Assembly (NCBI GenBank): GCA_030018455.1
Contig: JASEFU010000002.1
Span: 141,480 to 205,479 of the forward strand
From: Dehalococcoidia bacterium
Lineage (GTDB): Bacteria > Chloroflexota > Dehalococcoidia > DSTF01 > JALHUB01
Length of the DNA: 64,000 bases
Reading direction: 5' to 3'
Shown: positions 4,330 through 47,917 of the stretch, in pieces
Layout: each line of letters opens with the position of its first letter
Numbering within the stretch: position 1 is the first letter of the stretch
Translations under genes and position numbers: made by a program
The notes under the pieces: model-generated
The model's input: the letters and a program-made list of their open reading frames with translations, nothing else
Databases searched by the model: none
What the model was told of the DNA's origin: nothing

Positions 4330-5433
4330 CTATCGATTGCGGGCCAGCCGCCACAGATCGACCATGATATACAGGACCAGCCCGCCGACCATGAAAGGAA
4401 TGAGAAAGCGGTAGTACGTCTTGACGAGGTATACCAGGGTCGCCTTGTCTAAGCTGGGCTCGTAGTGCGACAGCCACGCGGAAGGGAAGTTGACGGTGGC
4501 ATCCGGGTGGCACTTGCGACACGTGGTCAGCAGGTTCTCCTTTATGACGCGCGACTCGGGATCGTCCACGGCCTTGATGTCGTGGACGCCGTGGCAGTCG
4601 CTGCACACGGGCTGGTCGGGCCAGACGTCCGTCCCCTCCTTCTGGTAAAAGCCGACAGTCTTGCCGTGGAAATCGTCGAGGTACGTCTTGAGGACGTTGG
4701 AGGAGATACCGTATTTGTCCATCAGCTCCTTGTCGGCGTGGCAGCCGGCGCAGAGATTGAGCGAATCGAGCCGGAAAGAGGCGGTCGTAGCGCTGGGTAT
4801 GTTGTGGACGCCGTGGCAGGTTGTGCACACGGGCACGTCGGGGTTTTCCTCACGTAGAGCGGAGCCGTGGATGCTGGAGCTGTACGCCTCGTAAATGCCT
4901 TCGTGACATTTTGAGCACGCCTGGGCGATCTGCGTCCGTGATTCGCGGATCGGCGTGGCCGCGTGGGCGGTGTGGCAGTCGGTGCAAAGCGGGGCGTAGG
5001 TGAAGCCCTTCGAAAGCGCCTCGAAGTGCACGCTATCGAGGGTCAGCGTGTAGTTCTTGAAGTGGCAGCGCTTGCACAGCTCGTACTGCGCCTGGGAGTA
5101 CTCCCGTCGCCCGGAGACCTCCGGCAACGGGTGAGGGTAGCGGCGGTTCCGCTCGTGGCAATCGAGGCAGTTCAGCTTGTCGCCGTGGACGGAGCTGCGA
5201 TAGGCCTCTTCATTGAACGTGAGTGAAAGAGCATCGCCGTTGGGGAACGTCATCGCGATCTCAGGCCGCAGGTGGCAGCGCAGGCACGACGCGTTCGGGT
5301 CCTGGGCCGGCGGCGAGGGCGGCGGCGCGGACTGCGCGACCGGGGCCGCGCGCAAGAAGACCAGGCCAAGGGAGGCGGCAGCGCATGCGCCCAACAGCAG
5401 CCGCGAGAGCGCGCCCCGTTTCCGTCTGTTCAT
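4330..5433 (-). CDS. Nonaheme c-type cytochrome, signal peptide, C-terminal TM anchor (split CbcL-like c subunit)
   Basis: 9 CxxCH motifs (CLRCH, CLDCH, CKRCH, CTDCH, CSKCH, CTTCH, CAGCH, CSDCH, CRKCH); start overlaps upstream stop (ATGA). Confidence 0.85.
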   Translation of the reverse strand: MNRRKRGALSRLLLGACAAASLGLVFLRAAPVAQSAPPPSPPAQDPNASCLRCHLRPEIAMTFPNGDALSLTFNEEAYRSSVHGDKLNCLDCHERNRRYPHPLPEVSGRREYSQAQYELCKRCHFKNYTLTLDSVHFEALSKGFTYAPLCTDCHTAHAATPIRESRTQIAQACSKCHEGIYEAYSSSIHGSALREENPDVPVCTTCHGVHNIPSATTASFRLDSLNLCAGCHADKELMDKYGISSNVLKTYLDDFHGKTVGFYQKEGTDVWPDQPVCSDCHGVHDIKAVDDPESRVIKENLLTTCRKCHPDATVNFPSAWLSHYEPSLDKATLVYLVKTYYRFLIPFMVGGLVLYIMVDLWRLARNR

Positions 5434-12902: not shown

Positions 12903-12978
12903 TGGAGCGGGAAACGGGACTCGAACCCGCGACCCTCTGCTTGGGAAGCAGATGCTCTGCCAACTGAGCTATTCCCGC
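12903..12978 (-). tRNA. tRNA-Gly (anticodon CCC)
   Basis: 76 nt cloverleaf: acceptor GCGGGAA/TTCCCGC, D-arm GCTC-AGTTGGCA-GAGC, anticodon loop TTCCCAA, T-arm GCGGG-TTCGAGT-CCCGT, discriminator T, CCA encoded. Confidence 0.85.
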
Positions 12979-15414: not shown

Positions 15415-16308
15415 CTAGCGCGCCACTTCCGGCGCCTCCCGCAGGCGCGACTCGTTCCGACGGCCGTGGAGCCAGCCGGCCGCCACGCCCAGCGTCGCGA
15501 ACACGACGCCGAGGAGCACGAAGCCGATCCCCGTGTGTATCGGGAGCCAGATAACGTCCTTCCCTAGGGAATATAGCTGCGCCGTGAGGTAATCGCCCTC
15601 GCTCTCCGACGCCAGCTTCAGCGCGAACCGCACACCCACGGCCAGCAGGAGGTAGGGCAGCGCGGCCGCCATCAGTATGACGCCCAGCGCCGTGAGCCTT
15701 CCGTACCCGCGACTGAGGAGCACGAGGACCAGCGTGAGCACGAGCGTCGCGCCCAGCAGGGCCGCCGTCACCACGCGCGCGATCTCGTACGTGTCCTCTG
15801 TGACCAGCCCCACCGTATACCTCACCGCACCCGGCGCCGACAGCAGCGATATGTCCCCCGACGCAGCCTCCCGCTCCTCGAACGCGGCAAGACCCCGTTC
15901 GTAGAACCTGTCGGCCGAGCGCGACAAGATCACCTCGCGCAGCTCTCCGGTGGAGAGCCGCTGCACCTCCTCGCCCGAAAGCGGCACGTCTATCGGATAG
16001 TGCGCGAGCCTCAGCTCTTCCTCCGGCGACTCCTCGGCGGCTGCCCTGAGGTCGTCCTCGCTCTCCACCAGCAGGGCGTCGATCTCCGTCAGGCTGGCAA
16101 GCGCGCGGTGCAAAGTCTCAGAGGCGGGTTCGGGCGACGTTATCTGAAGTATGTTCACCGAGAGGAGGAGCGCGCCCATCACCGCCACGAGGATCACGCC
16201 GCTCCCCCACGTGAAGAGAGTGCGCCAGAAGCCGCGCGAGACGCTGACCGTGAAGGACGCGGCCGGGGGCTCGGTGGTTATCGTGTTGTCGCCGGCGCTC
16301 GCGCCCAT
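15415..16308 (-). CDS. Membrane protein, unknown function
   Basis: 297 aa, N-terminal TM + C-terminal multi-TM region. Confidence 0.5.
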   Translation of the reverse strand: MGASAGDNTITTEPPAASFTVSVSRGFWRTLFTWGSGVILVAVMGALLLSVNILQITSPEPASETLHRALASLTEIDALLVESEDDLRAAAEESPEEELRLAHYPIDVPLSGEEVQRLSTGELREVILSRSADRFYERGLAAFEEREAASGDISLLSAPGAVRYTVGLVTEDTYEIARVVTAALLGATLVLTLVLVLLSRGYGRLTALGVILMAAALPYLLLAVGVRFALKLASESEGDYLTAQLYSLGKDVIWLPIHTGIGFVLLGVVFATLGVAAGWLHGRRNESRLREAPEVAR

Positions 16309-16326
16309 TCGCCTCCCTCCGGCGCC

Positions 16327-16890
16327 TCAAGCCATCCGCACTACAAGCGTGCCCGCAATACGGTCGTGCAGGCCCCGTCGCTGCTCGTCGAAGGCCATTG
16401 CGCCGAGGGCGATGAGCGGCGAGAGCAGCGAAAGCAGCGCCAGGCTGACGGTCACGACGAGGACGACGACGTTTAGGGTGAGCGAAGTCGCGAATATCGC
16501 CAGGAGGGCCCACGGCACCGCCAGCAACGGGTGGAACAGGAGAGGGTCAAGCAGGAGGATTCGGGCCGCCGCCTGCCCGAGCGTCAGCCCGCTGCCGTTG
16601 GCGCCCGCCACTCGTATCCCCACGATGTACTTGCCCACGCTCTGCCCCTTCCACATCAGCAGCCACAGGTTGAAAGCGAACCAGAAGGGGACAACCGCCA
16701 CTATCATGCCGAGAGAAGTGTAGAAGGCCGAATCGGGCGGGTCCACCTCGCCGAAGTCGCTGCGCAGGAGGAGCTGGAAGAGCGAGGCCGTGAGGAAGAC
16801 GGACGAGAAAGCCAGCAGGATTATCGTGTCGAACAGAAAGGCGACTACTCTCGCTTCCAGTCCGGCGTAGCGGGGAACCGGTGCTGTCAT
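16327..16890 (-). CDS. RDD family membrane protein
   Basis: RDD-like pattern, 3-4 TM. Confidence 0.65.
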   Translation of the reverse strand: MTAPVPRYAGLEARVVAFLFDTIILLAFSSVFLTASLFQLLLRSDFGEVDPPDSAFYTSLGMIVAVVPFWFAFNLWLLMWKGQSVGKYIVGIRVAGANGSGLTLGQAAARILLLDPLLFHPLLAVPWALLAIFATSLTLNVVVLVVTVSLALLSLLSPLIALGAMAFDEQRRGLHDRIAGTLVVRMA

Positions 16891-17055
16891 ATTCTCATGT
16901 CTCCGCGCGCTGATTATATCACGCCCGGCGAAGGCGGCTCAAAGAAGGACAGTGGTCATAATCGACTCGACATAAGGTCGCCGCTCGGGAAAGCCGACGG
17001 CGGGGAGCGTGCGGCCCGCCGCGCTCATCGATGGCCACGACGCGGCGAGGCGGTG

Positions 17056-25608: not shown

Positions 25609-25638
25609 TTGTCCCGCCCCAACCCCGATGCTATAATC
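25609..25638 (+). promoter_or_regulatory. Putative promoter TTGTCC-18-TATAAT for gatCA
   Basis: Consensus -10 TATAAT 28 nt upstream of gatC TTG start. Confidence 0.35.
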
Positions 25639-25666
25639 GCAGGCAAAGGGACTCAGAGGGAAGGAA

Positions 25667-25954
25667 TTGGGTCTTACACGCGAGGAAGTGGAGCATCTGG
25701 CCAAGCTGGCGCGGCTGGGCCTCAGCGAGGCCGACAAGGCCAGGTTCGAGGAGCAGCTTTCGGAAATACTCGACCACTTCGACGTCCTGCGCCAGATCGA
25801 CACTGAAGGCGTTCCCCCTACGGCGCACACGCTGCCCCTGGAAAACGTCTACGACTCCGACCACGCGCGGCCCTCGTTCCCGTCTGACGATATCCTGGCG
25901 AACGCGCCTTTGCGTGAAGACAGCCTCTTCCGGGTGCGCGCCATCCTCGAATGA
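25667..25954 (+). CDS. gatC: Asp-tRNA(Asn)/Glu-tRNA(Gln) amidotransferase subunit C
   Basis: 95 aa, GatC family (LTREEVEHLAKLARLGLSEAD...); TTG start with GAGGGAAGGA SD. Confidence 0.9.
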   Translation: MGLTREEVEHLAKLARLGLSEADKARFEEQLSEILDHFDVLRQIDTEGVPPTAHTLPLENVYDSDHARPSFPSDDILANAPLREDSLFRVRAILE

Positions 25955-26068
25955 CGCGGCCTTTACCCGCGCCTTGCTCTTGCACAGGAGGGATTTCTGG
26001 ACCTCTGCTATCTCACCATTCACGAAGCGGCGGCGCTCCTCTCGAAACGGGAGATATCCTCCCGCGAG

Positions 26069-27454
26069 TTGACGCAGGCGGTGCTCGACCGCATCGCCCT
26101 GGTGGAGGACAGCGTCAAGGCTTACGTCACGCTCACGCCCGAGCTCGCGCTCAAGCAGGCGGCGCACGCCGACGCCCGCATCGCTGAGGGCGCGGCTACG
26201 CCTCTTACGGGCATCCCCGTCTGCATCAAAGATGTCATCTGCACGAAGGGCGTTCCCACTACCTGCTCCTCGCGCATGCTCGCCAACTTCGTCCCCCCGT
26301 ACGACGCCTCCGTCACGCGACGCCTTCTCGACGCGGGCGCGGTGATGGTGGGCAAGGCAAACATGGACGAGTTCGCGATGGGCTCGTCGACGGAGAACTC
26401 GGCCTTCTTCCCCACGCACAACCCGTGGGACCTCGAGCGCGTGCCCGGCGGCTCTTCCGGCGGCTCGGCGGCGGCGACAGCGGCGGGCGAGTGCATTTTC
26501 GCCCTCGGCTCCGACACCGGCGGCAGCATTCGGCAGCCGGCGGGGCTTTGCGGCGTCGTCGGACTCAAGCCCACCTACGGCCGCGTCAGCCGCTTCGGCC
26601 TCGTCGCCTTCGCCAGCTCGCTCGACCAGATCGGCCCCATTACCCGCGATGTCGAAGACTGCGCTATCGTGCTCAACCACATCGGCGGCTACGACCCCTC
26701 CGATTCCACCTCCGCGAACGTGGAAATGCCCGACTTCGCTTCGTTCCTCCAGCGCGACCTCAAGGGCGTACGCATCGGCGTCCCGAAAGAGTACCTCCCC
26801 GACGAGATGGACGCGGGCGTGCGGCAGGCCGTTGTGGAGGCGATCAAGGTCATGGAGTCGCTGGGCGCGAGCGTCGATTGGGACGTCTCTCTTCCCAGCA
26901 CGCCCTACGCTCTCGCCGTGTACTACATCATCGCCCCCAGCGAGGCGATGGCGAACCTCGCCCGCTACGACGGCGTGAAGTACGGCTTCTCCTATCAGGA
27001 GGGCGAGAGCATGTGGGACAACATGGAGAAGACGCGCCAGTTCGGCTTCGGCGACGAGGTGAAGCGGCGCATCATGCTCGGCACGTTCGCGCTCTCCGCC
27101 GGTTACTACGACGCGTACTATCTTAAGGCTCAGAAGGTGCGCACGCTCATCCGTCGCGAATTCGACGCCGCGTTCGAGAAGTACGATGCGCTGGTAACGC
27201 CGGTGAGCCCGACGCCCGCGTTCCGTCTGGGGGAGAAGGTGGACACGCCGTATCAGATGTACCTGAGCGATATCTTCACCCTGCCCATCAACATCGCCGG
27301 CATACCGGGGATATCGGTGCCCGGCGGGTTCTCGGAAGGGTTGCCGGTGGGCGTGCAGATACTGGCGAAGCCGTTCGACGAGGGGTCGCTCTTCCGGGTT
27401 GCGTACGCGTACGAGCAGGCAACCGAGTGGCACAAGTCCCGCCCGCCGCTGTGA
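26069..27454 (+). CDS. gatA: Glutamyl-tRNA(Gln) amidotransferase subunit A (amidase signature); true start probably upstream (~25997, CTG)
   Basis: [10 protein letters not shown] amidase signature; in-frame upstream region encodes conserved GatA N-terminus [26 protein letters not shown] with no ATG/GTG/TTG. Confidence 0.9.
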
Positions 27455-31751: not shown

Positions 31752-31948
31752 CTCGGCGATGGCCTCCGCGACGCGCTCGACCCTAGGCAGCGATGAGAGA
31801 ACAGGAGAAAGGCTGCCGGAACGCGGCCTTTCTCCCCCCGCGTCCTTTTCCTTTCAAAGCGCCTCTCTGCTTATAATGGTCGTGCAGCCCCGACGGAGAC
31901 CTTCAGGCAGGGGCAGCGTGATCCCGCCCACGTCAGATTTGAGGAAAG

Positions 31949-33421
31949 GTGACGGCGATGTCAGACAAGACCGCCCTCTCGGAGACCAGCGCCGGCAGTG
32001 ATCTCGAAGCCCTCTTTCGACCGCAGAGCATCGCGGTCGTGGGGGCTTCTTCAAACGTGAGGAGCCAGGGCTACGAGTACGTCGAAGGGCTCGTCAAGTT
32101 CGGATTCCCGGGCCCGATCTACCCCGTCAACCCCAAGCTCGACGAGTTGCTCGGCCTGAAAGCGTACCCGCGCCTTCAGGACATCCCCGGCGGCGTCGAC
32201 TTCGTGATTTCCGCCGTCCCCGCGAGCGCCGTCTTCGAACTCGTGGAAGGAGCGAAAGAGAAAGGGGTCAAGCTCATCCATTTCTTCACCGCCCGCTTCA
32301 GCGAGACCGGCCGCGCCGACGCCATCGAAATGGAGCGCGAGCTTCGGAAGAGAACGCAGGAAGCAGGTATCCGCGTCATCGGGCCGAACTGCATGGGACT
32401 GTATTACCCAAAGCAGCGCATCACCTTCGACCCCATGGTGCTGGAAGAGGAGCCCGGCAACATCGGCTTTCTATCGCAGAGCGGCAGCCACGCCTTCCGG
32501 GTCATCGGCAGGGGGAAGAACCGCGGACTGCGCTTCAGCAAGGTCATCAGCTACGGCAACGCCCTCGACTTGAATGAGGTCGATTTCCTCTACCACTTCG
32601 CCGATGACCCCGAGACGGAGATCATCGCGGCCTACATCGAAGGCCTGCGCGACGGCAAGCGCTTCTTCGAAGCGCTACGGTATGCGGCCTCCCGCAAGCC
32701 GGTGCTGGTGATGAAGGGCGGGCGTACCCCGGCCGGCCATGCCGCCGCCTCCTCACACACCGCAGCCCTCGCAAGCGAACGCTCGATATGGAGGGTCGCG
32801 GTCGAGCAGGCGGGCGCGCTCGAGGTCGCGAGCCTGAACGAGCTCATCGACCTGCTGGTGGCCTATCGCTGCGCGGGCCCGGTGAAGGGGCGGCGCGTCG
32901 CAGTGCTGGGCGGCGCCGGCGGCGGCACCGTCGAGGCGGCCGACCTCTGCGCCGAGGCCGGCCTTGAGCTAACGCCAGTTCCCCAGGAGATCAGGGAAGC
33001 CCTGCGCGACAAGCTCCCGCACGCTTGGGACTGGATCGGCAACCCGCTCGATGCGTCGATACTCGGCTGGGGGCCGCTGCGGGCGAACGAGATGGACATC
33101 CTGGGCATGATGGCGGCCCACCCCGCCTACGACGGCGTGCTGCTCAACTTCCACGTCGAGCGGGCGCTGCACCGCATGGGCCTGGAGAAGCTGCCCCCGG
33201 AAGCGATAGAGATGGTGGCGCGGCTGGGCAGGGACAACGATAAAGCGCTTGTCCTCGTCGTCGAGGAGCCGGAAGCGCGAGAGGAAGAGCGGGTGAGGGC
33301 TGTCCTCGAAGCGCGCGACCAGCTCGCGGCGGCGGGGCTCGCCGTCTACCCCGACATCGAGCGCGGCATCCGGGCGATGGGACGCTACGTGTCGTACGAG
33401 ATGCAACGCGCGTCCCGCTGA
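31949..33421 (+). CDS. Acyl-CoA synthetase (ADP-forming) / CoA-binding domain protein (succinyl-CoA synthetase-like alpha domain)
   Basis: CoA_binding + Succ_CoA_lig-like pattern (AVVGASSN..., GPNCMG). Confidence 0.8.
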   Translation: MTAMSDKTALSETSAGSDLEALFRPQSIAVVGASSNVRSQGYEYVEGLVKFGFPGPIYPVNPKLDELLGLKAYPRLQDIPGGVDFVISAVPASAVFELVEGAKEKGVKLIHFFTARFSETGRADAIEMERELRKRTQEAGIRVIGPNCMGLYYPKQRITFDPMVLEEEPGNIGFLSQSGSHAFRVIGRGKNRGLRFSKVISYGNALDLNEVDFLYHFADDPETEIIAAYIEGLRDGKRFFEALRYAASRKPVLVMKGGRTPAGHAAASSHTAALASERSIWRVAVEQAGALEVASLNELIDLLVAYRCAGPVKGRRVAVLGGAGGGTVEAADLCAEAGLELTPVPQEIREALRDKLPHAWDWIGNPLDASILGWGPLRANEMDILGMMAAHPAYDGVLLNFHVERALHRMGLEKLPPEAIEMVARLGRDNDKALVLVVEEPEAREEERVRAVLEARDQLAAAGLAVYPDIERGIRAMGRYVSYEMQRASR

Positions 33422-33518
33422 CGCGACACAGCCGGCGCACCGCGTTCTGCAACGTACGTTTTGCCCTGAGCCTCGTCGAGTCCGGCAGCAAGAAGACTTT
33501 CTGGCAAGGAGGCAGGAT

Positions 33519-35330
33519 GTGACAGATAAAGGCCACGGCTTCAGCGCGCGCGACGGCTGGTTCATCGACCCGCAGGGACGGCATGCCATCCTGCGGGGCG
33601 TCAACCTCAGCGGCAGCTCTAAGGTGCCCTACACCCCCAACGGCGCTACCCACCTCGGCGCCGAAATCGAGGGCTGGCGGGACGTCAGCTTCATCGGGCG
33701 GCCGTTTCCGCTCGAGGAGGCGGACGAGCACCTGGGGCGCATCGCCCACTGGGGTTTCAACGTCCTGCGGCTGCTCGTCACCTGGGAGGCGATCGAGCAC
33801 GCTGGCCCACGCCGATACGACGAGGCGTACCTCGACTACGCGCGCGAGGTGGTGAAGAAGGCGCGAGAGCACGGGCTGCTCGTCTTCATCGACCCCCACC
33901 ACGACGTCTGGAGCCGCTGGACGGGCGGCGACGGCGCCCCCTTCTGGTGCTTTGAGTGGGCGGGCCTCCTGCCGGAGCGCTTTCTCGACGCCCAGGCGGT
34001 CGAGGTCGACGCCATCGACTGGCCGTACAACTACAACCGCGTCCCCATCGCGACCATGTGGACGCTGTTCTACGGCGGCGACACGTTTTGCCCCGGGCTT
34101 TCAGGCGTGCAGGAGCGCCTGCAATCGCACTACATCGACGCCATCTGCGCCCTCGCCGAGCGTCTCGCGGACCTCGATAACGTTCTCGGCTACGACACTT
34201 TGAACGAGCCCAGCGGCGGCTACATCGGCCGGGGGCAAGACCTGGCGGAGCCGCCTCCCGCTGTGGGTGGCCGCGGAGAGCGCCCTTTCTCCTGTCTCGA
34301 CTACCTTGCCGCCGCCGACGGCCACACCATCACCGCTGCAAACGGCGCCGTCCTCAACCCGAACGGCGTTTCCATCTGGAAGGACGGCTGCCCGTGGCGG
34401 AAAGCGGGTGTGTGGGACGTGGATGGTAACGGGGAGCCGGTGTTACGTTCGCCGGAGCATTTCCAGCAGGCCGGGGGACGGACGGCGACGGCATGGGACT
34501 TCATGGTGCCGTTCATGCAGCGCTTCCGCGACTCGCTGCGGCGCGTCCATCCCGGCTGCTTCGTCTTCATCGAGGGGGCGCCGCGCGACATCAACACTCC
34601 CTGGGACGACCCCGACCCGCTGGTCTGCAACGCCCGCCACTGGTACGACGTCGTAACCCTTAGCACTCGCCGGTTCGACCCAAGCGCCTACCGTACGTTT
34701 TCCGGTGATGTCCTTTCCGGCGTAGAGCAGATCGCCGGGGAGTTCACGCGCCAGCTCGCGGTCATGCAGTCGATCTCTCGGGAGCGGATGGGCAATCCGC
34801 CGATGCTTCTGGGAGAGTTCGGCATCCCCTATGACATGAATGACGGCGAGGCCTATCGCACGGGCGACTACGGCGCTCAGGAGATCGCGCTGGACGCCAA
34901 CTACCGCGCGCTGGAGGCGCTCCTGCTGAACTCCACGCAGTGGAACTACACGCCCGACAACACGCACGAGCACGGCGACCAGTGGAACAAGGAAGACCTC
35001 TCGATATGGAGCGCCGATGACGGCCGCGACCCGCGCGATCCTGACGCCGGCGGACGGGCCGTGCGCGCCTTCTGCCGTCCGTACGTCCGGTGGGCAGCGG
35101 GGCGCCCCCTGCGCATGGCGTTCGACCCCACAAGCAGCGTCTTCGAGGCATCGATCGAGAGCGACGCGCGGGCGGCGGGCCCAACGCTGGTCTACGCGCC
35201 GCGCCTGCACTATCCGGGCGGCCCGCAGGTAGAGGCTTCGAGCGGCACGGCCTTCTATGATGAAGCGACGCAGATGATAACGTGGAAGGGGCACTCAGGC
35301 ACGGCTGAGTTGCGGTTGCGGCGAAAGTAG
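33519..35330 (+). CDS. Glycoside hydrolase family 5 protein
   Basis: NVLRL...W, acid/base YDTLNEP, nucleophile LGEFGIP. Confidence 0.8.
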   Translation: MTDKGHGFSARDGWFIDPQGRHAILRGVNLSGSSKVPYTPNGATHLGAEIEGWRDVSFIGRPFPLEEADEHLGRIAHWGFNVLRLLVTWEAIEHAGPRRYDEAYLDYAREVVKKAREHGLLVFIDPHHDVWSRWTGGDGAPFWCFEWAGLLPERFLDAQAVEVDAIDWPYNYNRVPIATMWTLFYGGDTFCPGLSGVQERLQSHYIDAICALAERLADLDNVLGYDTLNEPSGGYIGRGQDLAEPPPAVGGRGERPFSCLDYLAAADGHTITAANGAVLNPNGVSIWKDGCPWRKAGVWDVDGNGEPVLRSPEHFQQAGGRTATAWDFMVPFMQRFRDSLRRVHPGCFVFIEGAPRDINTPWDDPDPLVCNARHWYDVVTLSTRRFDPSAYRTFSGDVLSGVEQIAGEFTRQLAVMQSISRERMGNPPMLLGEFGIPYDMNDGEAYRTGDYGAQEIALDANYRALEALLLNSTQWNYTPDNTHEHGDQWNKEDLSIWSADDGRDPRDPDAGGRAVRAFCRPYVRWAAGRPLRMAFDPTSSVFEASIESDARAAGPTLVYAPRLHYPGGPQVEASSGTAFYDEATQMITWKGHSGTAELRLRRK

Positions 35331-46486: not shown

Positions 46487-47359
46487 ATGGAACGAAGAGT
46501 CGAGTACTATTCGCAGGGGGCGCGCATCAGCGCCGTCCTCTACACGCCGGACGGCGCGCCTGCCGGCGAGCGGCTGCCCGCCGTGCTCCTATGCCACGGC
46601 TTTACCGGCATCAAAGAGCTCATCCTCCCCGACTACGCCCGCCGCTTCGCCGCCGCCGGCTACGCCGCCCTCGCCTTCGATTACCGCGGCTTCGGCGAGA
46701 GCGAGGGCGAGCGCGGACGCCTCATCCCCCTGGAGCAAGTGGCCGACATCCGCAACAGCATCACTTTCCTCGAGACGCAGGACGAAGTCGACCCGCAGCG
46801 CATCGCCCTCTGGGGCACGAGCTTCGGCGGCGCGAACGTCATCTACGTCGCCGGCATCGATCCGCGCCCGAAGTGCGTCGTGGCGCAGGTGGGCTTCGGC
46901 GACGGCCGCCGCATGCTCTCGCGCGCGACGCCGGAGCAGCGGGCGCTCGTCGACCAGGTAATCGCCGCCGACCGCCGCCAGCGCGTGCTAACCGGCCACG
47001 GCGCGAAGATCGACCCCTTCCTCGTCTTGAGCGACCCCGATTCCGTTGCCTTCTTCAACGAGGCGTCGAAGGCCCTGCCGCAGCTCAAGACCGAGATAAC
47101 GCTCGAGACGGCGGAGGCGACGCTGGAGTACAGCCCGGAGGAGGTCGTCGAGCGAATCGCGCCGCGCGCCCTGCTGCTCATCGCCGCCGAACGCGACGAG
47201 ACGACACCCGCCGACGAGTTCCGAGCGGTCTACGAGCGGGCGCTGGAGCCGAAGAAGCTCGTCGTCATTGAGGGGATACGCCACTACGAGGTCTATTCAG
47301 GGGACGGCTTCGAGCGCTCCGTGCGCGAGGCGCTGGACTGGTTCGAGCGCTATCTGTAG
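46487..47359 (+). CDS. Alpha/beta hydrolase (dienelactone hydrolase-like)
   Basis: LLCHGFTG...WGTSFGG. Confidence 0.8.
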   Translation: MERRVEYYSQGARISAVLYTPDGAPAGERLPAVLLCHGFTGIKELILPDYARRFAAAGYAALAFDYRGFGESEGERGRLIPLEQVADIRNSITFLETQDEVDPQRIALWGTSFGGANVIYVAGIDPRPKCVVAQVGFGDGRRMLSRATPEQRALVDQVIAADRRQRVLTGHGAKIDPFLVLSDPDSVAFFNEASKALPQLKTEITLETAEATLEYSPEEVVERIAPRALLLIAAERDETTPADEFRAVYERALEPKKLVVIEGIRHYEVYSGDGFERSVREALDWFERYL

Positions 47360-47821
47360 TCAGGCCTGCTCTCTGTGGCCCTTGTGCAGGTCGTGGCCGC
47401 GCCTTTCTTCCACGCGGTGCATCGCGCGGCCCTTATCGGGGTGCGGGTCCAGTATGACGCCGTATATCTCGCGGCCCTCGTGTCCCTCCGGCAGGTGCTC
47501 TGTTATCGGAAGACCTTCCGAATTACAGAACAGCATTCAGTGGCAGTACTTGAAGCGCTGCATCTCCTCGCAGGGACACGACCACACGCTCGACTTCGCC
47601 TCCTCCGCCTTGTCCTCGTAGAAGTTGCAGGGGCAAAGCGGGCGGCCCACCTCGTCGATGTGTTTGGCGAGACCGATTACGAGGTACTCCGTGATCGCGG
47701 GGTCGGGGTGCAGGTAAGCGCCGGCCTTTTCGGCGTAGCGTTCCGCGAACCGTCGCATCTTCTCGACGTTCGCCGCCGACGCCTGCATGCGGTCTTTCTC
47801 CGTCGGGCGCTCGATGGCCAA
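47360..47821 (-). CDS. Ferredoxin-thioredoxin reductase catalytic-subunit-like protein, candidate selenoprotein (UGA 47537-47539 replaces 2nd Cys of CHC motif)
   Basis: PLCPCNFYEDKAEE...WSCPCEEMQRFKYCH-TGA-MLFCNSEG aligns to FTR-C PLCPCRHYEDK...WNCPCVPMRERKECHCMLF; ORF continues 58 codons to TGA 47360-47362. Confidence 0.55.
47506..47521 (-). promoter_or_regulatory. SECIS-like hairpin 15 nt downstream of UGA (UCGGAAG-GU-CUUCCGA; apical GGUC)
   Basis: 6-7-bp stem with GGUC in apex, minus-strand mRNA. Confidence 0.4.
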
Positions 47822-47917
47822 GTGTCTCTCCTTCTGATTCTACCGTCCAGTCTAAAGAACCCTACACGCTCGTTCAACCGATATCGGCTGGCCGGAGTCG
47901 CCGGCAAAAGGGGGAGC

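What the first reader, a model, noticed from the sequence alone, without database searches (positions are those of the whole stretch)
47360..47821. Candidate selenoprotein: FTR-catalytic-subunit-like gene with UGA in the CHC motif
The minus-strand ORF encodes a ferredoxin-thioredoxin-reductase catalytic-chain-like protein (CPC...CPC...CHC architecture). It stops at TGA 47537-47539, where every FTR-C homologue has the second Cys of CHC; that Cys is the active-site disulfide partner in characterised FTR. The frame then continues for 58 sense codons (MLFCNSEG..., matching the conserved CHCMLF continuation) to a second TGA at 47360. A 6-7-bp hairpin with GGUC apex lies 15 nt 3' of the UGA, at bacterial-SECIS spacing. 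A single-base change from Cys TGC/TGT to TGA exactly at a catalytic Cys is the hallmark of Sec recoding. I am not aware of FTR-like proteins being an established selenoprotein family.
Basis: partly seen in the sequence, partly recalled or inferred. Interest (0 to 1): 0.85.

Follow-up and report, generated by a model that had tools for sequence, protein, structure and literature searches.

The report
Selenocysteine-containing FTR-like thioredoxin reductase gene
This is very probably a real gene in which an apparent stop codon encodes selenocysteine at the catalytic site of a ferredoxin:thioredoxin-reductase-like enzyme; selenium-containing enzymes of this family have been known since 2008, but this one-selenocysteine form, common in Chloroflexota, appears in none of the catalogues I could read.

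Summary
A minus-strand FeThRed_B gene (47821..47360) carries TGA at 47539..47537, at the column of the second Cys of CHC (Cys87 of Synechocystis FTR). The frame continues for 58 codons.

This is not a pseudogene. At least 91 species-level genomes (Dehalococcoidia/Chloroflexota, two Entotheonella) have the same TGA. Their downstream reading frame is as constrained as the upstream one (pN/pS 0.33 against 0.36).

A bulged hairpin with a GGUC loop follows the UGA:
- It pairs in 86% of cells in TGA forms and 41% (chance level) in Cys forms.
- It is built from codons that are rare in this genome.
- It has the architecture of the E. coli fdhF SECIS.

tRNA-Sec lies next to the gene in eight related genomes.

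The main gap is that the Sec machinery of this window's own genome could not be examined. The window contains no selA, selB, selD or tRNA-Sec.

FTR-type selenoproteins were reported in 2008 (double-Sec CPU...CIU, now NCBIfam NF041072). This gene is only 28% identical to those, scores below that model's cut-off and has a single Sec. It is therefore a distinct variant of a known kind. Interest is moderate to low.

The parts
47360..47821 (-). Complete coding sequence of the FTR-like selenoprotein: 153 codons (TTG start, Sec at codon 95) plus the terminal TGA.
   Evidence: PF02943, 93.8 bits, match spans the TGA; homologues align over the full length from the TTG-encoded Met.
47828..47833 (-). Shine-Dalgarno-like AAGGAG, 6 nt upstream of the TTG start (47821..47819).
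   Evidence: Read directly. The start position agrees with the N-termini of the homologues.
47570..47635 (-). Codons for the two CPC motifs: C63 47635..47633, C65 47629..47627, C82 47578..47576, C84 47572..47570. They correspond to Cys55/57/74/76 of Synechocystis FTR. C65 is the predicted partner of Sec95.
   Evidence: gapless alignment to 1dj7_A with an offset of 8. Residue roles are from the FTR structural literature (Dai et al. 2007, cited in PMC2398784) and my own knowledge.
47537..47539 (-). In-frame UGA, codon 95, predicted to encode selenocysteine (CH-U; equivalent to Cys87 of Synechocystis FTR).
   Evidence: The same TGA is present in at least 91 genome loci.
47504..47524 (-). Core SECIS hairpin conserved across the family (alignment A2, columns 22-42). 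It has a 4-bp apical helix, a GGUC loop (47515..47512), a single bulged nucleotide on the 5' side (47520) and a 4-bp lower part. In this sequence the alternative continuous 6-bp register UCGGAA/UUCCGA is also possible.
   Evidence: 85.9% of cells paired and covariation score 0.182, reached by 0 of 500 shuffles; 41.3% paired in Cys forms; codon choice. E. coli fdhF comparison.
47496..47532 (-). Extended SECIS stem in this lineage: an additional 8-bp lower helix (47532..47525 with 47503..47496) around the core hairpin.
   Evidence: -16.8 kcal/mol for the 48 nt after the UGA. The same helix appears in L023, L045 and L080. It is not conserved family-wide.
47360..47362 (-). True terminator TGA of the gene. 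It abuts the stop of the convergent alpha/beta-hydrolase gene (46487..47359, + strand).

Best explanation
The gene encodes a single-subunit-type homologue of the ferredoxin:thioredoxin reductase catalytic chain (FeThRed_B fold). It has five Cys and one selenocysteine in the CPC...CPC...CHU constellation.

During translation, the UGA at 47539..47537 is read as Sec. The mRNA immediately downstream folds into a bulged hairpin with a GGUC loop (47524..47504). By inference this hairpin tethers SelB-GTP-Sec-tRNASec to the ribosome, as the fdhF SECIS does in E. coli. Termination at that UGA would yield a 94-aa fragment lacking the redox partner and a structured third of the domain.

In the mature enzyme, also by inference from FTR, C63, C82, C84 and C93 hold a [4Fe-4S] cluster. 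C65 and U95 form the redox-active selenenylsulfide that is reduced in two one-electron steps by ferredoxin and then reduces a thioredoxin-type disulfide. U95 sits at the position that contacts the cluster in the one-electron intermediate.

What is shown: gene, family, TGA position, conservation of the TGA and tail, the Sec-specific hairpin, and tRNA-Sec in relatives. What is inferred: SelB dependence, actual Se insertion in this organism, the electron donor and the substrate.
For: **1. Family and position**
- PF02943 match at 93.8 bits across the TGA.
- Gapless alignment to 1dj7_A places the TGA at Cys87 and C65 at Cys57.
- A model of the 73%-identical Cys homologue superposes on FTRc at 1.4-1.6 A. 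Residues 91-130, after the UGA, have pLDDT 94-96.

**2. Recoding rather than decay**
- A DNA pattern requiring TGA in KYCH-TGA-(L/M)LF found at least 120 stretches in one-genome-per-species contigs. At least 91 of them are FTR genes with 52-88 conserved codons after the TGA.
- pN/pS is 0.33 downstream and 0.36 upstream over 90 genes.
- Against the 92-93.5%-identical orthologue L001, the longest identical run in 12.7 kb is 204 nt, covering the FTR core, the UGA and the hairpin.

**3. SECIS**
- The named bulged hairpin pairs in 85.9% of cells in 87 TGA forms, with 0 of 500 shuffles reaching the covariation score. Pair 25-39 is GC 50 / UG 24 / CG 8.
- The same columns pair in 41.3% of cells in 102 Cys forms, equal to shuffles.
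- Synonymous codon choice differs between forms: Gly GGT 80/90 against 16/100, and CTT at the Leu codon (+9) 65/90 against 7/100.
- In this window's own genes GGT is 5.4% of Gly codons and CTT is 7.1% of Leu codons.
- The architecture is 4 bp, a GGUC loop and a 5' bulge, as in the E. coli fdhF SECIS. That sequence was verified in 5,419 genomes.

**4. Machinery in the clade**
- tRNA-Sec (RF01852, 62-74 bits) lies within the fetched 8-kb locus, divergent from the gene, in 8 TGA-form loci and in no Cys-form locus.
- The literature reports tRNASec in Chloroflexi (PMC5389517) and Dehalococcoidia MAGs with 46-49 selenoprotein genes (PMC13326102).

**5. No general UGA reassignment**
- 16 of 45 likely genes in the window end in TGA.

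**6. Function**
- A thioredoxin gene lies within about 3 kb in 13 of 88 TGA-form loci and 1 of 61 Cys-form loci.
Against: - No selA, selB, selD or tRNA-Sec is present in the 64-kb window, and the rest of this genome could not be reached.
- On the single sequence the fold is no better than shuffles (z = -0.57).
- RNAalifold on its own predicts only 2 of the 8 pairs.
- No Rfam family matches the hairpin.
- The Cys-form control set comes mostly from other clades, so part of the codon contrast could be phylogenetic. However, it concerns synonymous sites, and the pairing contrast is large.
- Between the window and L001, the last 32 codons carry 8 non-synonymous and 2 synonymous changes. That tail is also variable in the Cys forms.
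- There is no expression or proteomic evidence.
Confidence: 0.88

Rival explanations
1. Pseudogene or error: a nonsense mutation, or a sequencing or assembly error, converted TGC/TGT to TGA, and the downstream frame is a not-yet-decayed remnant.
For: TGA is one base from TGT/TGC. Gene callers split the gene into 94-aa and 58-aa ORFs. The last 32 codons differ mostly non-synonymously from L001. One related locus (L103) does lose the frame further downstream.
Against: The same TGA occurs in at least 91 species-level genomes, with an open tail as constrained as the head. It is also present in independent runs. The UGA/hairpin region is the most conserved stretch of the locus. A hairpin built from rare codons is specific to the TGA forms.
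Confidence: 0.03
2. Split gene: translation ends at the UGA and restarts at the adjacent ATG (TGAATG), giving two polypeptides of 94 and 58 aa that assemble into the enzyme.
For: In this window the codon after the TGA is ATG, and pipelines call a 58-aa ORF there.
Against: In 75 of 90 TGA forms the next codon is CTG or CTA, not ATG. There is no ribosome-binding site. The catalytic Cys87-equivalent residue would be missing from both pieces. The hairpin and its covariation would have no role.
Confidence: 0.03
3. UGA is read through, but not as Sec, or no longer as Sec in this lineage. Examples are near-cognate or suppressor insertion of Cys or Trp, or a lineage that lost the Sec machinery recently and keeps a poorly expressed gene.
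For: The Sec machinery was not seen for this genome. One database entry reads KYCHW at this position (P0110). Sec and Cys forms interconvert often in this family, with fossil hairpins in the TGT forms L245 and L182.
Against: The hairpin has the fdhF-type SelB-binding architecture and is intact here, identical to that of L045 and L080. tRNA-Sec is linked to the gene in 8 relatives. A lineage without the machinery would be expected to fix TGT/TGC, as L245 did. The UGA region is perfectly conserved against L001.
Confidence: 0.06

Closest known systems
FtrB family double-selenoprotein (NCBIfam NF041072; GOS reads JCVI_READ_1093012271142 and JCVI_READ_841845; Zhang & Gladyshev 2008, PMC2398784)
   Same: It has the FeThRed_B fold. 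Sec replaces the redox-active Cys in the last C-x-C motif (C-x-U). A bacterial SECIS was predicted after the UGA. No member has been tested experimentally.
   Different: The published family has two Sec (CPU...CPC...CIU), is about 104 aa long and is marine. It is 28% identical to this protein. This protein scores 43.7 bits against a cut-off of 160. It keeps Cys in the first motif, has CHU rather than CIU, and carries a conserved C-terminal part of about 55 aa.
Ferredoxin:thioredoxin reductase catalytic subunit of cyanobacteria and chloroplasts (PDB 1DJ7, 2PVG, 7BZK)
   Same: There is a gapless sequence match over residues 19-101, E about 1e-25, 42-43% identity. All six CPC/CPC/CHC positions are conserved. 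The core of the model of the Cys homologue P0001 superposes at 1.4-1.6 A.
   Different: Those enzymes have Cys87 where this one has Sec, and they work as heterodimers with a variable subunit, which was not looked for here. Their C-terminus after CHCMLF does not superpose on the conserved extension seen here. The host is a non-photosynthetic Chloroflexota-type bacterium.
FTR-like ferredoxin-dependent disulfide reductases of anaerobes (Methanosarcina acetivorans FDR, PDB 4TPU; Desulfotalea Grx-FDR fusion, PDB 7PWE)
   Same: They are stand-alone FTR-like catalytic domains outside phototrophs, without a variable subunit according to those entries' descriptions.
   Different: The relationship is much more distant (E = 1e-7 and 8e-3; Foldseek TM 0.3-0.4). 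They carry fused rubredoxin or glutaredoxin domains and are all-Cys.
E. coli fdhF SECIS (SelB-binding hairpin)
   Same: It is a 4-bp apical helix closed by a GGUC tetraloop, with one bulged nucleotide on the 5' side directly below. The sequence GCAGGUCUGC is even identical in some family members.
   Different: Here the loop begins 21 nt after the UGA, against 18 nt in fdhF (one codon further). The bulge is mostly A, and C in this window, rather than U. SelB binding was not tested. No Rfam model matches.

Membership tests
Bacterial selenoprotein gene (SelB/SECIS-dependent UGA recoding) | In-frame UGA aligned with Cys, usually a redox-active one, in homologues | tested here: met
   118 of the 120 best homologues have Cys after KYCH. 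The column corresponds to Cys87 of 1dj7_A.
Bacterial selenoprotein gene (SelB/SECIS-dependent UGA recoding) | Reading frame continues after the UGA and is under purifying selection; the UGA is conserved in orthologues | tested here: met
   At least 91 genomes carry the TGA and a conserved tail. pN/pS is 0.33 downstream and 0.36 upstream.
Bacterial selenoprotein gene (SelB/SECIS-dependent UGA recoding) | Stem-loop immediately 3' of the UGA with G in the apical loop, conserved in Sec forms and dispensable in Cys forms | tested here: met
   85.9% of cells paired in Sec forms against 41.3% in Cys forms, with covariation above shuffles and slid controls. Synonymous codon bias supports it. RNAalifold alone is weak.
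Bacterial selenoprotein gene (SelB/SECIS-dependent UGA recoding) | selA, selB, selC (tRNA-Sec) and selD present in the same genome | not testable with these tools
tRNA-Sec lies next to the orthologous gene in 8 other genomes.
Bacterial selenoprotein gene (SelB/SECIS-dependent UGA recoding) | Selenium demonstrated in the protein | not testable with these tools
   This needs 75Se labelling or mass spectrometry.
Pfam PF02943 FeThRed_B (FTR catalytic chain family) | Profile match above the gathering score | tested here: met
   93.8 bits against a cut-off of 22.
Pfam PF02943 FeThRed_B (FTR catalytic chain family) | CPC...CPC...CHC constellation (four cluster ligands plus the redox pair) | tested here: met
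   C63, C65, C82, C84 and C93 are present, with UGA at position 95.
Classical heterodimeric FTR (catalytic plus variable subunit, ferredoxin-dependent thioredoxin reduction) | Variable subunit partner; ferredoxin as donor; thioredoxin as substrate | not tested
   The flanking genes are an SBP_bac_5 protein and an alpha/beta hydrolase. A thioredoxin gene lies within about 3 kb in 13 of 88 related loci, which is a hint only.
NCBIfam NF041072 FtrB family double-selenoprotein | Score at or above the curated cut-off (160 bits) | tested here: not met
   43.7 bits.
NCBIfam NF041072 FtrB family double-selenoprotein | Two Sec, at both redox-active positions (CPU and CxU) | tested here: not met
   The first motif is C-P-C encoded by TGC. 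All TGA forms found keep CPC, or in L075 CPS. The GOS sequences have CPU...CIU.

The most novel reading that the evidence does not exclude
The most novel reading not excluded has four parts:
- It is absent from every selenoprotein catalogue I could read (the 2026 review of 119 families and subfamilies lists only the double-Sec FtrB family) and lacks an annotation model, so it is systematically called as two short ORFs.
- It is linked to selC in several lineages.
- It places selenium at the one position that bonds to the [4Fe-4S] cluster in the FTR reaction intermediate. That would be a natural Fe-Se bond in a disulfide reductase.
Probability: 0.45. Interest if true: 0.5.

Novelty: new variant of a known kind. 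Interest (0 to 1): 0.35.

Why it matters
**Annotation.** The gene is split or truncated by gene callers. NCBIfam has a model only for the distant double-Sec clade. A model for the single-Sec clade would repair one gene per genome in many Dehalococcoidia and other Chloroflexota.

**Mechanism.** Sec sits at the Cys87-equivalent position, which in plant-type FTR interacts with the iron-sulfur cluster during catalysis. This gives a natural system for asking what selenium does to a cluster-coupled disulfide reduction.

**Evolution.** Sec and Cys forms interleave, and some TGT forms still carry the hairpin. The family is therefore a clean case for studying Sec-to-Cys exchange. None of this overturns current understanding.

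Tried and rejected
1. Rfam at gathering thresholds on the window and at E <= 10 on 47420-47580 gave no SECIS family and no tRNA-Sec in the window.
2. The single-sequence fold is not significant. RNAalifold on 87 sequences predicts only 2 pairs. The case for the hairpin rests on counting a named structure against controls.
3. I screened the window for other coding ORFs interrupted by TGA. The two other candidates are simply adjacent genes: gatC/gatA at 25637-27454 and two membrane proteins at 15415-16938.
4. I looked for sel genes beside the tRNA-Sec of L013 and L051 with Pfam, and for SelA/SelD/SelB motifs by regular expression in all loci and the window. Nothing was found, and the motif scan is a weak test.
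5. I tried to identify the source genome by exact-protein look-up. This returned only short Logan contigs of run SRR23186779, so the organism is known only as a 66% G+C relative of Dehalococcoidia/Chloroflexota MAGs.
I modelled the 73%-identical Cys homologue P0001 instead.
7. I searched the BSepDB paper and the Peng 2016 paper for this family. FTR is not mentioned in either main text, and no BSepDB supplements are held, so I cannot exclude that the database itself lists these genes.

Full report
**1. What is in the sequence**

On the minus strand an ORF starts at TTG 47821..47819. AAGGAG lies at 47833..47828, six nucleotides upstream. The ORF encodes 94 residues ending ...EEMQRFKYCH and then meets TGA at 47539..47537. 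The same frame continues for 58 sense codons (MLFCNSEGLPITEHLPEGHEGREIYGVILDPHPDKGRAMHRVEERRGHDLHKGHREQA) to TGA 47362..47360. That stop abuts the stop codon of a convergent alpha/beta-hydrolase gene.

With the internal TGA read as Cys, the 153-residue product matches Pfam FeThRed_B (PF02943) at 93.8 bits, E = 7.9e-27. The match covers residues 19-102, so it runs through the TGA.

**2. The TGA column**

A database search gave 1,213 homologues. The best full-length ones are 147-163 aa proteins, and those that carry a source name are from Dehalococcoidia or Chloroflexota MAGs. In 118 of the 120 best hits the residue after KYCH is Cys. One entry stops there (P0065, 94 aa, 98% identical) and one reads W.

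The protein aligns without gaps to the Synechocystis FTR catalytic chain 1dj7_A with an offset of eight residues. C63, C65, C82, C84, C93 and U95 therefore correspond to Cys55, 57, 74, 76, 85 and 87.

From the FTR literature (Dai et al. 2007, cited in PMC2398784) and my own knowledge:
- Cys55, 74, 76 and 85 hold the [4Fe-4S] cluster.
- Cys57-Cys87 is the redox-active disulfide.
- Cys87 is the cluster-proximal partner.

**3. Is the tail real protein?**

An AlphaFold2 model of the 73%-identical Cys homologue P0001 has mean pLDDT 86. Residues 91-130, the part encoded after the UGA, have pLDDT 94-96. The core superposes on FTR catalytic chains at 1.4-1.6 A over 86-89 residues. The C-terminal part does not superpose on the plant-type C-terminus. 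A 94-aa termination product would therefore lack both the catalytic partner residue and a folded third of the domain.

**4. Comparative test of recoding**

- About 28 matches are chance hits in AT-rich genomes with no ORF.
- At least 91 are FTR-like genes with the TGA in register, followed by 52-88 conserved codons (consensus LLFCDEEGLPITEYLPEDHEGREIYG..DP.PDKGRALGRLEE).
- All carry MAG labels Dehalococcoidia, Chloroflexi/Chloroflexota, 'Chloroflexia' or Thermoflexus, except two Entotheonella and one 'uncultured bacterium'.

Over 90 genes the proportions of non-synonymous and synonymous differences compare as follows:

| Region | pN | pS | pN/pS |
|---|---|---|---|
| 42 codons after the TGA | 0.189 | 0.565 | 0.33 |
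| 45 codons before the TGA | 0.208 | 0.580 | 0.36 |

The tail is as constrained as the head.

The orthologue L001/L002 shares the local gene order and is 92-93.5% identical in DNA. It comes from two other sequencing runs and has the same TGA. The longest perfectly identical run in the whole 12.7-kb comparison is 204 nt at 47459-47662. That run covers the CPC...CPC...CHU core, the UGA and the hairpin. A decaying pseudogene would not be the best-conserved stretch of the locus.

**5. The hairpin**

On this sequence alone the fold is unremarkable (z = -0.57). The comparison with Cys forms is what counts. As a control I fetched 102 Cys forms from metagenome contigs, using the same pattern with TGY.

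Synonymous codon choice after the UGA/UGY differs sharply between the two sets:

| Codon position | TGA forms | Cys forms |
|---|---|---|
| Gly (+8) as GGT | 80/90 | 16/100 |
| Leu (+9) as CTT | 65/90 | 7/100 |
| Glu (+7) as GAA | 68/90 | 21/100 |

In this window's own likely genes GGT is 5.4% of Gly codons, CTT 7.1% of Leu, GAA 23% of Glu and AAT 8% of Asn. The stretch AAT-TCG-GAA-GGT-CTT-CCG-ATA is therefore built from codons the genome otherwise avoids.

I then counted a named structure on the gapless 66-column alignments (A2 and A3). It comprises columns 22-25 and 27-30 paired with columns 35-42, a bulge at column 26 and the loop GGUC at columns 31-34. The results were:
- In 87 TGA forms, 85.9% of cells are paired and the covariation score is 0.182. 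None of 500 shuffles reaches it, and slid controls give 0.105 or less.
- Pair 25-39 occurs as GC 50, UG 24, CG 8 and GU 2.
- In 102 Cys forms only 41.3% of cells are paired, equal to shuffles.

A caveat is that RNAalifold alone predicts only the two invariant G-C pairs, and no Rfam family matches. Part of the codon contrast may also reflect the different clades of the control set.

The architecture is a 4-bp apical helix, a GGUC tetraloop and one bulged 5' nucleotide. This is the architecture of the E. coli fdhF SECIS. I confirmed that sequence in fdhF of 5,419 of 5,426 E. coli genomes. Here the loop starts 21 nt after the UGA, against 18 nt in fdhF. In this window and its nearest relatives (L023, L045, L080) an extra 8-bp lower helix surrounds the core.

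**6. Sec machinery**

The window has a single tRNA (Gly-CCC, 12903-12978), no tRNA-Sec and no recognisable selA, selB or selD. The rest of the genome was out of reach.

Indirect evidence is good:
- ARAGORN and Rfam (RF01852, 62-74 bits against a gathering score of 47) find tRNA-Sec inside the 8-kb locus of eight TGA-form genes.
- In every case it lies divergently upstream of the FTR gene: about 110-130 nt away in four loci and 2-4 kb away in four.
- None was found in the Cys-form loci.
- For a single-copy gene in a genome of 2-4 Mb this is an enrichment of roughly thirty-fold (my estimate).
- The literature reports tRNASec in Chloroflexi (PMC5389517) and Dehalococcoidia MAGs with 46-49 selenoprotein genes (PMC13326102).

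UGA is not generally reassigned in this genome: 16 of 45 likely genes in the window end in TGA. The FTR gene is the only coding ORF in the window interrupted by a TGA.

**7. Rivals**

- **Pseudogene or error.** This is excluded for practical purposes by sections 4 and 5.
- **Split gene with re-initiation at the adjacent ATG.** This fits the window only. In 75 of 90 TGA forms the next codon is CTG or CTA, and neither piece would carry the catalytic residue.
- **Read-through as something other than Sec, or recent loss of the machinery.** This is the only rival I cannot dismiss for this particular genome. Against it, the hairpin is intact and the UGA region is perfectly conserved against L001. 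Relatives that abandoned Sec fixed TGT: L245 is 97% identical in protein to L080, and L182 is 95% identical to L041, and both still carry the hairpin as a fossil.

**8. Function**

The gene here is monocistronic, lying between an SBP_bac_5 gene and a hydrolase. In related loci the commonest neighbours are a PAC2-family gene (26 loci), rpsN (24 loci) and a canonical WCGPC thioredoxin (PF00085, 120 bits). The thioredoxin gene is convergent just downstream in about 15 loci. A thioredoxin motif occurs within about 3 kb in 13 of 88 TGA-form loci and 1 of 61 Cys-form loci.

The most likely role is a ferredoxin-dependent thioredoxin or disulfide reductase. This is inferred from homology and gene neighbourhood and was not tested.

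**9. Comparison with what is known**

FTR-type selenoproteins are not new. Zhang & Gladyshev (2008, PMC2398784) reported them from the GOS metagenome. Reviews of 2022 and 2026 list the family with motif CxU. NCBIfam has NF041072, 'FtrB family double-selenoprotein'.

The published sequences are CPU...CPC...CIU proteins of about 104 aa. They are 28% identical to this protein, which scores 43.7 bits against that model's cut-off of 160. This protein fails both defining features of NF041072, so it is not a member of it.

The 2026 review treats differences in Sec position or motif as separate subfamilies and lists only the double-Sec form among 119 families. I therefore rate this gene as a new variant of a known kind. 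The reservation is that BSepDB or GenBank records I could not query may already contain it.

**10. Verdict**

| Question | Probability or score |
|---|---|
| The family is decoded as Sec | about 0.95 |
| This particular gene is decoded as Sec | about 0.88 |
| Interest | 0.35 |

It is an expected kind of Cys-to-Sec substitution in a redox enzyme of a Sec-rich clade. Its value lies in repairing annotation and in offering a natural selenium variant of a cluster-coupled disulfide reductase.

Noticed in passing
L013 741-833, L019 441-533, L022 522-614, L105 3699-3791 (about 110-130 nt from the FTR start); L020 4792-4884, L051 6156-6249, L090 5184-5276, L120 5190-5282: tRNA-Sec (RF01852) lies divergently upstream of the Sec-form FTR gene in eight species-level genomes. 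No sel genes were found beside it in the two loci I scanned. This may be a selC-FTR linkage in some Dehalococcoidia.
   Followed up: partly
L245 1501-1947 (Cys, TGT; protein P0002); L182 around 5326-5391: Two Cys forms almost identical in protein to Sec forms (97% to L080, 95% to L041) still carry the GGUC or GGA-loop hairpin. These are fossil SECIS elements implying recent TGA-to-TGT changes. Sec and Cys forms interleave by nearest neighbour (17 Cys forms are nearest to a Sec form; 5 Sec forms are nearest to a Cys form).
   Followed up: partly
window 47525-47527 (codon +4 after the UGA) and the same column in alignments A2/A3: Four residues after Sec there is a Cys (U-x-x-F-C) in 65 of 90 Sec forms but in only 3 of 101 Cys forms, which have Val. 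It could be a clade marker or an extra resolving thiol.
   Followed up: no
window 47459-47662 compared with L001: The longest perfectly identical run (204 nt) in a 12.7-kb comparison at 92-93.5% identity falls exactly on the FTR core, the UGA and the hairpin. Synonymous sites upstream of the UGA are also frozen, which the SECIS alone does not explain. A recent recombination tract is possible.
   Followed up: partly
window 31838-34072 compared with L001 10647-12890: There is a synteny break between the window and its closest relative. The segment that follows the shared block in L001 maps about 6 kb away in the window, in the opposite orientation.
   Followed up: no
protein P0110 (JGI, 140 aa; similar to the Entotheonellaceae locus L034): This entry reads KYCH-W-LLF at the Sec column. 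Either a pipeline translated TGA as Trp under another genetic code, or it is a real TGG variant.
   Followed up: no
L103 (DAOUHS010000061.1), downstream of the TGA: The frame loses similarity after ...LPEGHE and runs on as unrelated sequence. This is a frameshift, either an assembly error or a genuine pseudogene, in one of the TGA forms.
   Followed up: no
L022 and L077 (CAMDAY01 MAG); L099 and L121 (JADLFF01 MAG): Two different Sec-form FTR genes occur in the same MAG, so they are either paralogues or bin contamination. The CAMDAY01 MAG is labelled Dehalococcoides mccartyi.
   Followed up: no
L001 2606-2890 and 2891-3067; L243 148-432 and 433-609: Public gene calls split the gene into a 94-aa FeThRed_B ORF and an unannotated 58-aa ORF. 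This is the expected annotation artefact for an unrecognised selenoprotein.
   Followed up: yes
window 25637-27454 and 15415-16938: Two other same-frame ORF pairs separated by a single TGA turned out to be adjacent genes: gatC followed by gatA, and an RDD-like membrane protein followed by another membrane protein. They are not recoding candidates.
   Followed up: yes
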